From an uncultured Lachnospira sp. (GTDB taxonomy: Bacteria; Bacillota; Clostridia; Lachnospirales; Lachnospiraceae), in assembly GCA_949002095.1 (NCBI GenBank), contig CARJMT010000007.1, positions 70,024 to 134,023 on the forward strand: a stretch of 64,000 nucleotides of DNA. Direction: 5' to 3'. A program made the translations under genes and the position numbers. Below are positions 20,873 to 24,084 of this stretch, piece by piece; the first letter of the stretch is position 1; the number at the start of each line of letters is the position of its first letter. Below the pieces are notes generated by a model. It was not told where the DNA came from and searched no databases. It saw only the letters and a list, made by a program, of their open reading frames with translations.

Positions 20873-20905
20873 CATAAAAAAAATGCGTAGATTAAATCTA
20901 CGCAT
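20873..20905 (-). terminator. Intrinsic terminator after the RT gene (10-bp perfect stem atgcgtagat/atctacgcat plus an 8-U tract on the - strand)
   Basis: Palindrome 20883-20905 preceded on the + strand by eight consecutive A; the RT stop codon lies within the stem. Confidence 0.7.
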
Positions 20906-22169
20906 ATTGTAACCGACTAACAAGCTCCATATAGATATCATGGGCGAATAAGTCATGGTATAATTTATCTAAACTACACAATGTAGTATAGCTATTTTTC
21001 CTTTTTAGGTATCCACGCCAAGACTGATAAGAACAATTTATATCGTCTAATGTCATTAAGCCCTGGTCATAGAGTTTCTTGAACTTCTTCATCTTTCTTC
21101 TCATGCGGGTGACCGCAGCTCTCGATACTCTTCTTAAAACCTTTCCAGTTTCAGTAAAACTATATTTAGTCTTTAGGAAAGTGAACTGATGAGTAAGTTT
21201 TATAATTTGAGTTTTATTGGGATTTAACTTAATGCCAATTTCATCGCACATCCTTTTAATTTCTTCTAAGCAGTATTTCAAGTATTCTTTGTTGTGATGA
21301 ATTAAGTAGCTATCATCCATATAACGAGCATATCCTCTTATATGTAATACTTCTTTAATATAATGGTCTATGCGGTTTGGATAATTGATAGCTAAGATTT
21401 GACTCGTCTCACTTCCTAGACCTAAACTCTTTTCTCCAAATGGAAGAACAAATTGTTTCGTCAAATCAATAATTCTTTTATCGAAGACTTTTCTTTCTAG
21501 GTCTTCAAATATAGGTTCATGCAATATATTATCAAAGTATCCTGAAAAGTCGATTAAAAGAATATAACCATCTGTCCCATATTCTTTATAAAACTCTCTT
21601 AAATGCTGAGTTAATCTCTTATGAGTGAAATCAACTCCTTTACCTTTTAAGCTAGCTCCATTATCATGTATTAACGAAGGAGATAGAATAGGTAATAAAC
21701 AATTCTTATTGACGCTCTTCTGAACGACTCTTTCGCTAATATGAACACTTCTAATATATCGCTCTTTTCCACGTTCCTTTAACGTAAAATGGTGGAATCC
21801 TTTAGATATACTTTTACCAGCATAGATGTCTTCTCTAGTCTGATAAACGTTCTTAAAAAGATTCCGTTCATATTTTTGTGTACTTGCTTTCCATGATACA
21901 GTTTTCTTACACTGATAGAAAGCGTCACACAGGTTATCAAAAGAAATTATTTCATCAAAGTTGCCATACTTTTTATTTAGCTCTTTCTTTTTCTCTAACC
22001 TCTTTGCTACCCTTCTTTGGTAGCGTGCTTCTTTTCTTTCTTCACTGGTCACGTAGTAACCTCCTTTGTACCGCCCAGTATTACCTGTATATTTCCATGA
22101 GTCAGCAGCATAGAATAATGGGCATGAAAATAAAGTAAATATACGAACCTTTATCCATGCAAGCAGCAT
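20898..22169 (-). CDS. Diversity-generating retroelement (DGR) reverse transcriptase
   Basis: YARYMDDSYL (YxDD); LGSETSQILAINY carries [ILV]GxxxSQ, the DGR hallmark that replaces QGxxxSP; lies adjacent to a TR/VR pair. The true start may be downstream of 22169. Confidence 0.88.
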   Translation of the reverse strand: MLLAWIKVRIFTLFSCPLFYAADSWKYTGNTGRYKGGYYVTSEERKEARYQRRVAKRLEKKKELNKKYGNFDEIISFDNLCDAFYQCKKTVSWKASTQKYERNLFKNVYQTREDIYAGKSISKGFHHFTLKERGKERYIRSVHISERVVQKSVNKNCLLPILSPSLIHDNGASLKGKGVDFTHKRLTQHLREFYKEYGTDGYILLIDFSGYFDNILHEPIFEDLERKVFDKRIIDLTKQFVLPFGEKSLGLGSETSQILAINYPNRIDHYIKEVLHIRGYARYMDDSYLIHHNKEYLKYCLEEIKRMCDEIGIKLNPNKTQIIKLTHQFTFLKTKYSFTETGKVLRRVSRAAVTRMRRKMKKFKKLYDQGLMTLDDINCSYQSWRGYLKRKNSYTTLCSLDKLYHDLFAHDIYMELVSRLQYA

Positions 22170-22376
22170 CCGCCCAATTCATCAAAGTATTTATTTACCA
22201 ATTAAGGAAGGTCACTTTTTCATGTGGTTATATTATTTGTTGTTTATTATATCTTCGCTTGTACGGCGATAAAAATATCGAGATTTATTCGATAATAAAT
22301 AAATCTACGGATTTCAGCTTGCCGCCCGTGGTATTGGGTTTGGCATAGCTTACTTTGTCTGTACTTTTATACCACA

Positions 22377-22500
22377 TAAAGCACACAGGAACCCCAATGT
22401 TGGTGTTAGACGCACTGTTGTTGTTGGCATTTCCGTTGTTGTTGACATTACAGCAGTTAGTAGAGTTACCAGAGTTAACAGTACTCAACCACCAGTTGCA
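22377..22500 (-). repeat. DGR template repeat (TR)
   Basis: About 124 bp matching 23286-23410 except at A positions of the - strand; encodes 14 AAC/AAT Asn codons; lies 207 nt upstream of the RT. Confidence 0.88.
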
Positions 22501-22601
22501 GGACAATTCCCCAAACAGCAACAAGTATCAGCATTTAACTCGCAACATTGAGATAACTGAGGAAACATAAAAAGTAACCTAAGTCTATATATTAAATTAA
22601 C

Positions 22602-23045
22602 CTATTTCCGCTTATTATGCTTCATAAAGTTAATATGACTTTCTTCTTCACTCTCTAATAAATTTTGTATCAGTTCTTCTTCGTCAACAATTAAACCTAC
22701 AACACGTTCACGAACTGACATCTTTATATGAAGTCTTTCTCTGGCATCCTGCATTTCCGCAAGGATATCTTCACAACAATCATACATATTCATTAGAGCG
22801 ACTTTCTTTCTATTGTATAAGAAAGATTCGTCATTATCTTCGCCAACACAATCATAATATGTATTAGCATTTCTAATAAGTTCTCGACATAAATCAATCA
22901 TAGGTATTGAATATACGAATCTGTATCTCTTGGGAAATACTTTTTCATTCATTACCATAGACGTAACTTCTTTCCTTATTCGTGCTGCATTATGAATAAA
23001 CTCAACCTCTGATGTGGCTCTGTTTCTTCGTAATACATTACTCAT
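22602..23045 (-). CDS. Avd-like DGR accessory variability determinant (putative helical-bundle protein)
   Basis: 147-aa basic protein positioned between the target gene and the TR, as in the mtd-avd-TR-brt arrangement. Confidence 0.45.
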   Translation of the reverse strand: MSNVLRRNRATSEVEFIHNAARIRKEVTSMVMNEKVFPKRYRFVYSIPMIDLCRELIRNANTYYDCVGEDNDESFLYNRKKVALMNMYDCCEDILAEMQDARERLHIKMSVRERVVGLIVDEEELIQNLLESEEESHINFMKHNKRK

Positions 23046-23241
23046 TTAAGGTTTCCAACTCCTCTTCAAGCTGGTTAATTTGTGCTCTCAAGTTCTCTCT
23101 GTATAGCTTAGTCTCTGCATATTCAATGTCAGAGATTAAGCCCTCAGAATACTTAAGAGTTTTATAATCAGAATTAGTAAGTAACTGCTTTAAAGCAGTA
23201 ATCTCACCGTTAATTTGCTCAGCTCTTGTATTCATTTCCAT
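23038..23241 (-). CDS. Small coiled-coil protein (67 aa), hypothetical
   Basis: ORF whose stop codon overlaps the Avd-like gene's start. Confidence 0.35.
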   Translation of the reverse strand: MEMNTRAEQINGEITALKQLLTNSDYKTLKYSEGLISDIEYAETKLYRENLRAQINQLEEELETLNE

Positions 23242-23271
23242 ATTTTATATCCTTTCTGTTGACATCAAAGT

Positions 23272-24084
23272 TTAGGCAGAGATTCTAAAGCACACAGGAA
23301 CCCCAATGCCGGTGTGAGACGCACCGCCGTTGCTGGCACGTCCGGCGTAGCTGACAAGACAGCAGTTAGTAGAGTTACCAGAGGTAACAGTACTCAACCA
23401 CCAGGTGCAGCGACTTCCGCCATTTCCTTTACCTTTGATTCTATGTTTAAAACTATTTGCAAATAATGGATATTGAACATGTTGTCCACTACTATATCCT
23501 TTAGTTCCCCAAACAATAGAACCAAACACTTCATATTCACTAGGTAACCATAGATTACCCATATCATGCCATCCCCAAGAAGTTGAATCTGTTAATAATC
23601 CACTTCCTGAATATTTATACTCCAACAAAGTTCTTTTACCCTTAATAACAGCTTTTAAGTCAGCTGGTAATTTAGGATATATTGTTTCAAGCAAATATCT
23701 ACATACATTTGAAGCTAAATATGGAGAAGCTACTGATGATGTTCCATTATTGTTATTAGTAGTATTCCATTGAACATAATCATTTAAACAGTCAATACTA
23801 ATCCAATCAATATGATGTCCAAGTTGCTGGTCTGTAGTTTTATAATAGGTATCAATGCCTGCAATCTGCATTTTAACTACTTCTCCACCTGTTAATGTAA
23901 TTGTCTTATAATCACCAATTCTCAAATCATCAAAGTCAGCATTTGCACACTTAGTTTTTAACTGTGCCCAAGTATACTCAGATAACTCACGACCTTCATA
24001 AAGTTGAGGACCTTCAGTAGTAATTTCATAGATATTACCAATATCATACTCAACTCCATTTAATAGCAATTTTGTAATAGCCAT
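23272..24084 (-). CDS. DGR target protein, putative receptor-binding tail-fibre protein with a C-terminal variable C-type-lectin-like domain
   Basis: The last ~42 codons (CTWWLSTVTSGNSTNCCLVSYAGRASNGGASHTGIGVPVCF) form the VR; last gene of the tail-fibre operon. Confidence 0.8.
   Translation of the reverse strand: MAITKLLLNGVEYDIGNIYEITTEGPQLYEGRELSEYTWAQLKTKCANADFDDLRIGDYKTITLTGGEVVKMQIAGIDTYYKTTDQQLGHHIDWISIDCLNDYVQWNTTNNNNGTSSVASPYLASNVCRYLLETIYPKLPADLKAVIKGKRTLLEYKYSGSGLLTDSTSWGWHDMGNLWLPSEYEVFGSIVWGTKGYSSGQHVQYPLFANSFKHRIKGKGNGGSRCTWWLSTVTSGNSTNCCLVSYAGRASNGGASHTGIGVPVCFRISA
23286..23410 (-). repeat. DGR variable repeat (VR) at the 3' end of the target gene
   Basis: About 17 mismatches to the TR, all at TR adenines (coding strand). 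Confidence 0.88.

What the first reader, a model, noticed from the sequence alone, without database searches (positions are those of the whole stretch)
20873..24084. Complete diversity-generating retroelement (target–Avd–TR–RT) at the end of the tail-fibre operon
A reverse transcriptase (RT) at 20898-22169 carries YMDD and the DGR-diagnostic LGxxxSQ motif. A 124-bp template repeat (TR) at 22377-22500 is rich in AAC codons. A small basic Avd-like ORF lies at 22602-23045. The variable repeat (VR) occupies the last ~42 codons of the 270-aa gene at 23272-24084. The gene order matches the BPP-1 mtd-avd-TR-brt arrangement, but the cassette sits in a low-GC Firmicutes-type phage. The target is therefore probably a hypervariable receptor-binding protein that could re-target host tropism.
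Basis: partly seen in the sequence, partly recalled or inferred. Interest (0 to 1): 0.92.

Follow-up and report, generated by a model that had tools for sequence, protein, structure and literature searches.

The report
Active diversity-generating retroelement in gut phage
This is a genuine and evidently active diversity-generating retroelement that rewrites the tip of a tail-fibre-like lectin protein in a large human-gut phage, but it is an ordinary example of a well-described kind of system.

Summary
A 125-nt template repeat (TR, 22377-22501) and a variable repeat (VR, 23286-23410, codons 226-266 of the 270-aa gene) differ at 17 positions. All 17 are A in TR and non-A in VR. The RT's best solved relative is BPP-1 bRT, and it carries LGSETSQ and YMDD. 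The accessory ORF is an Avd-like four-helix bundle by fold only; it has no sequence match and is not basic (pI 6.1). The target is a DUF6273 / C-type-lectin-fold protein. Near-identical phage contigs from other samples differ almost only in VR, at TR-adenine positions, while TR stays identical. The element is therefore active in nature.

- The RT most likely starts at GTG 22052 (384 aa), not at ATG 22169.
- The TR-RT spacer holds the Rfam RT-2 RNA, the counterpart of the BPP-1 spacer RNA.
- A 67-aa ORF lies between target and Avd. It travels with the fibre gene, not with the DGR.
- The upstream 291-aa ORF is probably the fibre's anchor half.

DGRs with DUF6273 targets in phages of gut Clostridia are already published, and Roseburia phage Shimadzu is the closest isolate. 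This is a new member of a known kind, of modest interest.

The parts
23272..24084 (-). DGR target gene (270 aa): a short N-terminal segment plus a DUF6273 / C-type-lectin-like domain. It is the probable receptor-binding tip of a tail fibre.
23286..23410 (-). Variable repeat (VR), codons 226-266, ending 4 codons before the stop. The last 20 nt before the final A (23287-23306, TTGGGGTTCCTGTGTGCTTT) contain no A, are identical to TR and are IMH-like.
   Evidence: Variation among 15 cluster members is confined to the VR codons whose TR counterparts contain A. Nucleotide comparison of sister contigs.
23038..23241 (-). Conserved 67-aa acidic ORF whose composition suggests a helical protein. Its stop overlaps the Avd start (ATGAGTAA). 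It is probably a fibre-associated factor, not DGR machinery.
   Evidence: 74 homologue clusters of about 67 aa. Absent from other DGR loci of the same RT clade. A homologue follows a DUF6273 fibre gene with no Avd/TR/RT next to it in L021/L022.
22602..23045 (-). Accessory variability determinant (Avd-like), 147 aa. A four-helix bundle, sequence-divergent and near-neutral (pI 6.1).
22377..22501 (-). Template repeat (TR), non-coding, 36 A, 14 AAY codons when read in the VR frame.
   Evidence: 100% identical in sister contigs whose VRs differ at 17-22 sites.
22041..22376 (-). TR-RT spacer RNA, Rfam RT-2 (RF03077). The Rfam hit covers 22041-22261. The conserved 5' block GTACAGACAAAGTAAG lies at 22349-22364, directly after TR. 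A lineage-specific insertion of about 85 nt lies at about 22222-22306. It is the presumed counterpart of the BPP-1 spacer (Sp) RNA that binds RT-Avd and primes cDNA synthesis.
   Evidence: cmscan 76.4 bits against a gathering score of 40, E 1e-17. RT-2 lies between TR and RT in all 12 related loci, 92-143 bits. Alignment. Literature: PMC5737381; bioRxiv 10.1101/2023.10.23.563531.
20898..22052 (-). DGR reverse transcriptase, 384 aa from GTG 22052 (RBS AAAGGAGG at 22060-22067). The open frame extends to ATG 22169.
   Evidence: RVT_1. phrog_1423, E 7e-78. Best PDB hit is bRT 8ub7_A. 26% identity to bRT, E 5e-21, with IGSLTSQ/LGSETSQ and ARYMDD aligned. Start site.
20883..20905 (-). Terminator-like hairpin (10-bp stem) followed by T7, overlapping the RT stop codon. 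The probable end of the cassette transcript.
24105..24980 (-). 291-aa ORF directly upstream of the target. Probably the anchor/shaft half of a split fibre protein.
   Evidence: In L021 one 551-aa protein combines a p291-like N-terminus with a DUF6273 domain 59% identical to target residues 26-270. p291 is conserved next to the target in all sister loci.

Best explanation
This is a complete, functional diversity-generating retroelement of the BPP-1 type.

Proposed mechanism:
1. An RNA containing TR and the downstream structured spacer (Rfam RT-2) is transcribed.
2. The DGR reverse transcriptase, together with the Avd-like four-helix-bundle protein, binds this RNA.
3. The RT copies TR into cDNA while misincorporating opposite template adenines.
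4. The cDNA replaces the VR, which is the last 41 codons before the C-terminal tail of the 270-aa DUF6273 / C-type-lectin-fold protein.
5. TR itself is left unchanged.

The 14 AAY codons and 7 other A-containing codons allow about 1e20 protein variants and cannot create a stop codon. The diversified protein is most likely the ligand-binding tip of a two-part tail fibre (the 291-aa ORF plus the target) of a roughly 144-kb siphovirus-type phage of gut Bacillota. Diversification would therefore retune receptor binding.

Shown here: the anatomy, the A-specific pattern, the RT family, the folds, the RT-2 RNA, and VR-restricted diversity in nature.

Inferred from BPP-1 biochemistry and not shown here: cis-priming from the spacer RNA, the role of Avd, the homing mechanism, and receptor binding.
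For: - 17 of 17 TR/VR mismatches are at TR adenines. No codon can become a stop, and there are 1.2e20 possible variants.
- The RT's closest solved relative is bRT, and the DGR motif LGSETSQ is present.
- The target has DUF6273 and a C-lec fold.
- RT-2 RNA lies between TR and RT here and in 12 of 12 related loci.
- Activity in nature, protein level: among 15 members of the target's 90% cluster, residues 1-225 are nearly invariant and the variation sits at the VR codons that contain A in TR.
- Activity in nature, DNA level: across 7.8 kb, the window, L017 and L018 differ at 3-5 sites outside VR, at 17-22 sites inside the 125-nt VR, and at 0 sites in TR. L014 and L016 differ at 18 VR sites and 1 other site.
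- Direction of transfer: the L014/L016 lineage has two TR substitutions. One (C>T) is copied into both VRs. The other (G>A) created a new A at which the two VRs now differ (T in L014, A in L016). This shows TR-to-VR transfer.
- A terminator-like hairpin lies at the RT stop.
Against: - No reads were available, so within-sample heterogeneity for this exact genome was not shown.
- The accessory protein has no sequence similarity to BPP-1 Avd (hhalign probability 0.07%). It is not basic, and its oligomeric state is untested.
- No hairpin/cruciform was found downstream of VR (z = +2).
- The priming site in the spacer RNA could not be located (inconclusive).
- No neighbouring gene carries a curated tail-fibre annotation. 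The receptor-binding role rests on homology to Shimadzu orf22 and on the fold.
- RT-null alleles exist in sister genomes, so activity is not universal in the lineage.
Confidence: 0.93

Rival explanations
1. The cassette is intact in sequence but is currently a fossil or a switched-off DGR in this particular genome. The VR differences would then record past events only.
For: RT nonsense alleles occur in close relatives: L014 has Q148>TAA at 1457x coverage, and L001 has K>TAA after YMDD. No read-level data exist for the window's own sample.
Against: In the window the RT frame is open with all catalytic motifs. TR, the RT-2 RNA and the Avd-like gene are intact. The nearly clonal genomes (window, L017, L018) have 17-22 VR differences against 3-5 differences in 7.7 kb of flanks, which implies very recent mutagenesis.
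Confidence: 0.07
2. The DGR is real, but the diversified protein is not the host-receptor-binding protein. It would instead bind another ligand, such as mucus or host glycans, other bacteria, or immune molecules, as has been proposed for tentaclins and Hoc-like DUF6273 targets.
Against: The gene sits at the distal end of the tail module, after the tape-measure and tail proteins. The closest isolate homologue is a fibre protein with a Phage_tail_fib N-terminal domain. A fused p291-DUF6273 protein exists in a relative. The target has no Ig-like domains, so it is not a tentaclin.
Confidence: 0.2
3. The repeat pair is an ordinary duplication or recombination product, and the RT belongs to a group II intron or a retron.
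For: The NCBIfam group II and retron models give sub-threshold hits to the RT, as they would for any RT.
Against: 17 of 17 mismatches are A-specific, p about 6e-10. The group II score is 76 bits against a cut-off of 300, and the retron score is 39 against 235. The Rfam scan of 20000-24500 at E<=1 finds only RT-2 above its gathering score, and no intron or retron RNA. bRT is the best PDB match.
Confidence: 0.01

Closest known systems
Bordetella phage BPP-1 DGR (mtd-avd-TR-brt), the prototype
   Same: The gene order is target-accessory-TR-spacer-RT on one strand, at the distal end of the tail genes. VR lies at the 3' end of a C-lec-fold target. Mutagenesis is A-specific. The RT is homologous end to end (26% identity, E 5e-21), with the same SQ and YMDD motifs. 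The accessory protein is a four-helix bundle. A structured RNA lies between TR and RT.
   Different: - The target is a 270-aa single DUF6273 domain, without Mtd's beta-prism and beta-sandwich.
- Avd has no detectable sequence similarity and is near-neutral rather than basic.
- An extra 67-aa ORF lies between target and Avd.
- The spacer is about 325 nt and belongs to Rfam RT-2, whereas BPP-1 has RT-10.
- No hairpin was detected after VR.
- The host phage is a roughly 144-kb low-GC siphovirus type, not a 42-kb temperate podovirus.
Roseburia phage Shimadzu DGR (LR596903: orf22 tail fibre, orf23 Avd, orf24 RT)
   Same: It is the closest cultured relative of all three proteins: RT 50%, target DUF6273 domain 57%, and Avd homologous over the N-terminal 80 residues. 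The spacer aligns with the RT-2 block.
   Different: - Shimadzu is a 45-kb temperate phage with a baseplate-J-type tail.
- Its target is 431 aa, with a tail-collar fibre N-terminal domain fused on.
- It has no 67-aa ORF.
- It is reported to diversify two targets (PMC11792537), whereas only one VR lies in this 64-kb window.
DUF6273-target DGRs of gut Clostridia phages (Faecalibacterium phages Roos, Pioen, Lelie; metagenomic nd4/nd12 'tgt2'; Toutatisvirus)
   Same: VR lies at the C-terminus of a DUF6273 domain with a C-type-lectin-like fold. The small single-domain targets of 234-294 aa resemble this 270-aa protein (PMC10743442; PMC11792537). The RTs are 34-36% identical.
   Different: The phage backbone is different, at about 144 kb with its own replication genes. 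The target here has no Ig-like domains, so it is not a tentaclin. It appears to be the split-off tip of a two-gene fibre.
Rfam RT-2 (RF03077) and RT-10 RNA motifs (Weinberg et al. 2017)
   Same: The match is full-length and above the gathering score, immediately upstream of an RT gene. The position between TR and RT is the same as that of RT-10 in BPP-1.
   Different: The window's copy carries a lineage-specific insertion of about 85 nt and an enlarged first loop. Rfam's alignment therefore misplaces the 5' block. In the 2017 paper, only RT-10 was assigned to a DGR.

Membership tests
Diversity-generating retroelement (DGR) | A reverse transcriptase of the DGR clade with the [LIV]GxxxSQ motif and YxDD | tested here: met
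   LGSETSQ and YMDD are present. The best PDB hit is bRT, E 3.7e-15, against 2.5e-6 for a group II RT. BLASTP against bRT gives E 5e-21 end to end. phrog_1423 scores 7e-78. The group II and retron NCBIfam scores lie far below their cut-offs. No formal phylogeny was run.
Diversity-generating retroelement (DGR) | A TR/VR repeat pair whose differences are confined to adenines of TR | tested here: met
   125 nt with 17 of 17 mismatches at TR adenines. p is about 6e-10.
Diversity-generating retroelement (DGR) | VR at the 3' end of a protein-coding target, and TR non-coding and next to the RT | tested here: met
   VR covers codons 226-266 of 270. TR lies 325 nt upstream of the RT start.
Diversity-generating retroelement (DGR) | An accessory variability determinant (Avd-type four-helix bundle, or HRDC-type) | tested here: inconclusive
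   [not shown]
Diversity-generating retroelement (DGR) | Unidirectional TR-to-VR transfer, with TR invariant and VR hypervariable among otherwise identical genomes | tested here: met
   Sister contigs show 0 TR differences, 17-22 VR differences, and 3-5 differences in 7.7 kb of flanks. TR-lineage substitutions are mirrored in VR.
Diversity-generating retroelement (DGR) | An IMH at the 3' end of VR, and a hairpin/cruciform downstream of VR (BPP-1 type) | tested here: not met
   An A-free 20-nt stretch identical in TR and VR is present. No stable hairpin is predicted downstream of VR (z = +2). No IMH/IMH* sequence difference was seen inside the repeat. IMH function cannot be tested here.
Diversity-generating retroelement (DGR) | A structured spacer RNA between TR and RT that supports cis-primed cDNA synthesis | tested here: inconclusive
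   The Rfam RT-2 motif is present here and in 12 of 12 related loci. The priming nucleotide and the TR:spacer duplex were not identified.
Avd family (Pfam PF05635 23S_rRNA_IVP / PF22296 bAvd) | A sequence match to the family models | tested here: not met
   The window protein gets no hit. The hhalign probability against BPP-1 Avd is 0.07%. PF22296 hits only 2 of 46 family members, at E 0.008.
Avd family (Pfam PF05635 23S_rRNA_IVP / PF22296 bAvd) | A four-helix-bundle fold of about 110-150 aa | tested here: met
   [not shown]
Avd family (Pfam PF05635 23S_rRNA_IVP / PF22296 bAvd) | A positively charged pentameric barrel that binds RT and RNA | tested here: not met
   Charge: pI 6.1 and net charge -2, with a basic N-terminal half and an acidic C-terminal half. 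Pentamer formation and binding cannot be tested with these tools.
C-type-lectin-fold DGR variable proteins (Mtd, TvpA, TaqVP; Pfam DUF6273) | A C-lec-like fold with VR forming its C-terminal part | tested here: met
   [not shown]
[quoted passage not shown] | [quoted passage not shown] | tested here: not met
   The target is a single domain of 270 aa with VR at its C-terminus, and it has no Ig-like domain. The family definition comes from PMC10743442.

The most novel reading that the evidence does not exclude
In this phage lineage the DGR ribonucleoprotein may be a real variant of the BPP-1 one. The Avd-like protein is sequence-unrelated and near-neutral. The RT-2 spacer RNA is enlarged by an insertion of about 85 nt. 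Together these could imply a different mode of RNA binding or priming. RT-null alleles recur in natural populations (L014, L001), which suggests that phages switch hypermutation off to lock in a successful fibre variant.
Probability: 0.15. Interest if true: 0.5.

Novelty: new member of a known kind. Interest (0 to 1): 0.3.

Why it matters
The locus is a clean natural example of DGR activity. Near-clonal 145-kb gut phage genomes from different samples differ almost only at the A-templated positions of one lectin-fold fibre tip. It could serve as a test case for three questions:
- how DGRs shape host range in phages of gut Clostridia;
- whether the Rfam RT-2 RNA is the functional equivalent of the BPP-1 spacer RNA;
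- how RT loss-of-function alleles 'freeze' a receptor-binding variant.

It does not change what is known about DGRs. Systems with DUF6273 targets, divergent Avd proteins and this RT clade are already described in gut phages.

Tried and rejected
- Sequence-level identification of the accessory ORF as Avd found nothing. Pfam, NCBIfam, PHROGs, PDB phmmer and a PDB profile search gave no hit. A broad family profile against BPP-1 Avd gave no similarity. Only the fold and the synteny support Avd.
- A hairpin/cruciform downstream of VR is not predicted.
- A search for a TR-3'-end:spacer priming duplex was made in 7 loci. The best duplex often falls on the conserved GGGCGGACGC block, but that block is simply the most GC-rich segment and is already paired in the RT-2 consensus. 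The result is inconclusive.
- Single-sequence folding of the whole TR-spacer RNA was not different from shuffles (z = -0.8).
- No second VR target lies in the 64-kb window. The remaining roughly 80 kb of the phage genome was not visible.
- The 67-aa ORF as an extra DGR accessory factor was rejected as the main reading. Its homologue follows a DUF6273 fibre gene with no adjacent Avd/TR/RT in L021/L022. It is also absent from other DGR loci of this RT clade.
- TAG recoding, as in the distant relative phAss-1 (PMC10607447), does not apply. The window's long ORFs are intact under code 11, and the stops seen in relatives' RT genes are TAA.
- Megablast of the cassette against INPHARED phages gave no match. 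A search of IMG/VR with the 67-aa ORF found only the L001 contig.
- Group II intron and retron readings were rejected.
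Full report
OBSERVATION

An unbiased repeat search of 20000-25000 returns one outstanding direct repeat, 22377-22501 against 23286-23410, at 125 nt and 86% identity. Read on the coding strand, the two copies differ at 17 positions. Every one is an A in the RT-proximal copy (TR) and a non-A in the copy inside the 270-aa gene (VR): 9 A>G, 6 A>C and 2 A>T. TR is 28.8% A, so the chance of this is about 6e-10. A TR pattern with its adenines masked matches only these two places in the 64-kb window, with 0 expected by chance. 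In the VR reading frame TR has 14 AAY codons and 21 A-containing codons. None can mutate into a stop, and the theoretical repertoire is about 1.2e20 proteins. VR covers codons 226-266 and ends four codons before the stop. Its last 20 nt before the final A (TTGGGGTTCCTGTGTGCTTT) contain no A and are identical in TR.

THE PROTEINS

The RT has Pfam RVT_1 and matches PHROG 1423 at 7e-78. Its best solved relative is the BPP-1 DGR reverse transcriptase bRT (8ub7_A, E 3.7e-15), ahead of group II intron RTs (2.5e-6). A direct BLASTP against bRT aligns end to end (26% identity, E 5e-21). The DGR-specific IGSLTSQ/LGSETSQ motif and ARYMDD are in register. The NCBIfam group II and retron models score 76 and 39 bits against cut-offs of 300 and 235. 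Rfam finds no intron or retron RNA nearby.

The annotated ATG at 22169 is probably not the start. A GTG at 22052 lies 7 nt after AAAGGAGG. Homologues align only from residue 40 onward. Gene callers on sister contigs give 384 aa. The upstream part of the open frame is occupied by a structured RNA, described below.

THE RNA

The 325 nt between TR and the RT start contain a full-length match to Rfam RT-2 (RF03077): 76.4 bits against a gathering score of 40, E about 1e-17, at 22041-22261. The same family lies between TR and RT in all 12 related DGR loci fetched from IMG/VR, at 92-143 bits. Alignment of the spacers shows that the conserved 5' block of RT-2 (GCAGACAAAGTAAG ... GAAATCCGT) sits directly after TR in the window (22364-22307). 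It is then separated from the rest of the motif by an insertion of about 85 nt that only the window and L001 carry. Rfam's alignment of the first 20 positions is therefore misplaced.

Weinberg et al. placed RT-10 in the BPP-1 TR-RT spacer and speculated that other RT motifs serve other DGRs (PMC5737381). The bRT-Avd-RNA cryo-EM study shows that this spacer envelops the RT, binds Avd and cis-primes cDNA synthesis (bioRxiv 10.1101/2023.10.23.563531). By analogy RT-2 is the spacer RNA of this DGR clade. I could not locate the priming duplex. A terminator-like hairpin overlaps the RT stop.

EVIDENCE OF ACTIVITY

The accessory protein occurs with identical sequence on 98 contigs of up to 149 kb. 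The target, by contrast, falls in a 90%-identity cluster with 46 distinct sequences. In an alignment of 15 members, residues 1-225 are essentially invariant, and the variation lies at the VR codons whose TR counterparts contain A.

At the DNA level, 7.8-kb loci were compared across samples.
- The window, L017 and L018 differ at 3-5 sites outside VR, at 17-22 sites inside VR, and at no site in TR.
- L014 and L016 differ at 18 VR sites and one other site.
- The L014/L016 lineage has two TR substitutions. One (C>T) is copied into both VRs. The other (G>A) created a new adenine at which the two VRs now differ.
- This is the signature of unidirectional TR-to-VR transfer.

CONTEXT

The window is 29-40% GC and carries two modules.
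- Replication, on the plus strand: a DnaB-like helicase, a primase, a 1311-aa DNA polymerase and NrdD.
- Structure, on the minus strand: terminase, portal, a 2931-aa tape-measure protein and tail proteins.

Contigs carrying the same genes are 139-149 kb long. The portal's nearest records are a human-faecal contig (70%), phAss-1 (39%), and roughly 140-kb Enterococcus phages and Bacillus, Lactococcus and Brevibacillus phages. phAss-1 relatives are predicted to infect Clostridia (PMC10607447). The RT and target are closest to Roseburia phage Shimadzu and Faecalibacterium phages. 'Firmicutes-type gut phage' is therefore supported indirectly. The host itself is unknown.

The DGR sits after the last tail-module genes, as in BPP-1 and Shimadzu. 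The neighbours lack curated fibre annotations. In a more distant relative (L021/L022), however, a single 551-aa protein joins a p291-like N-terminus to a DUF6273 domain 59% identical to target residues 26-270. This suggests that the 291-aa ORF (24105-24980) and the target are the two halves of one fibre. In that relative the homologue of the 67-aa ORF again follows the DUF6273 gene, and no Avd, TR or RT lies next to it. The 67-aa ORF is also absent from other DGR loci of this RT clade. It is therefore best read as a fibre-associated factor rather than as DGR machinery, although its stop overlaps the Avd start.

COMPARISON AND VERDICT

The element works like, and meets the defining features of, a BPP-1-type DGR. 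The tests that were not met concern details: no VR-flanking hairpin, and an Avd that is unrecognisable by sequence and not basic. It is not a tentaclin-type target. DGRs with DUF6273 targets, this RT clade and this divergent Avd are already known from Shimadzu, Faecalibacterium phages and many metagenomic gut phages. The finding is thus a new member of a known kind, in an undescribed roughly 144-kb phage lineage.

I rate interest at about 0.3. The value lies in the unusually clean population evidence, the assignment of Rfam RT-2 to the DGR spacer role, and the RT-null alleles seen in relatives.

Noticed in passing
L014:5988 (ENA ERZ14235890, 145-kb contig, 1457x coverage) compared with L016; L001:6886-6891: Two independent nonsense mutations inactivate the RT in close relatives. 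L014 has Q148>TAA, before the catalytic motifs. L014 differs from the RT-intact L016 only at that base and at 18 VR positions. L001 has K>TAA shortly after YMDD. This suggests that DGR switch-off recurs in natural populations and 'freezes' a VR.
   Followed up: partly
window 24628-24656 (-): A perfect sigma-70 consensus (TTGACA, 17 nt, TATAAT with an extended TG) lies inside the 291-aa ORF, about 540 nt upstream of the target's start. It may be an internal promoter for the target/DGR transcript, or a chance match in AT-rich DNA. Overall, promoter-like matches in the region are not enriched over shuffles.
   Followed up: no
L012:5914-7125 and L012:8004-9224: This related IMG/VR contig carries two DGR-type RT genes about 900 nt apart. 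The second has IGYQSSQ and YVDD and is 32% identical to the window's RT. This may be a tandem or double DGR.
   Followed up: no
window 22222-22306 (-), and the same place in L001: A lineage-specific insertion of about 85 nt sits inside the RT-2 spacer RNA. It includes a hairpin (AGATTTATT ... AATAAATCT, 22281-22305), and the first loop is also enlarged (22318-22348). The insertion is absent from the other ten RT-2 loci and from Shimadzu.
   Followed up: partly
L021:2328-3983, L021:4193-4705, L022:1316-1939; window 24105-24980: Several fibre-like proteins share the N-terminal motif M.W.ET.FI..HFYN(V/I)F seen in p291. One of them is fused to the DUF6273 domain. This looks like a common virion-attachment module carrying exchangeable distal domains.
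   Followed up: partly
window 23412 (-), codon 225: A C>T change (R225C), 2 nt upstream of the TR/VR homology boundary, segregates among otherwise near-identical genomes (L018, P0175, P0176). TR does not template it.
   Followed up: no
window 17675-20641 (-): Six small and medium ORFs follow the RT, in the position where BPP-1 and Shimadzu carry lysis genes. They have no functional annotation. One is a 287-aa Gly-, Asn- and Gln-rich protein with a Cys-rich C-terminus (phrog_16490). Another is a 104-aa ORF with weak metallopeptidase-like hits.
   Followed up: partly
[not shown]
   Followed up: no
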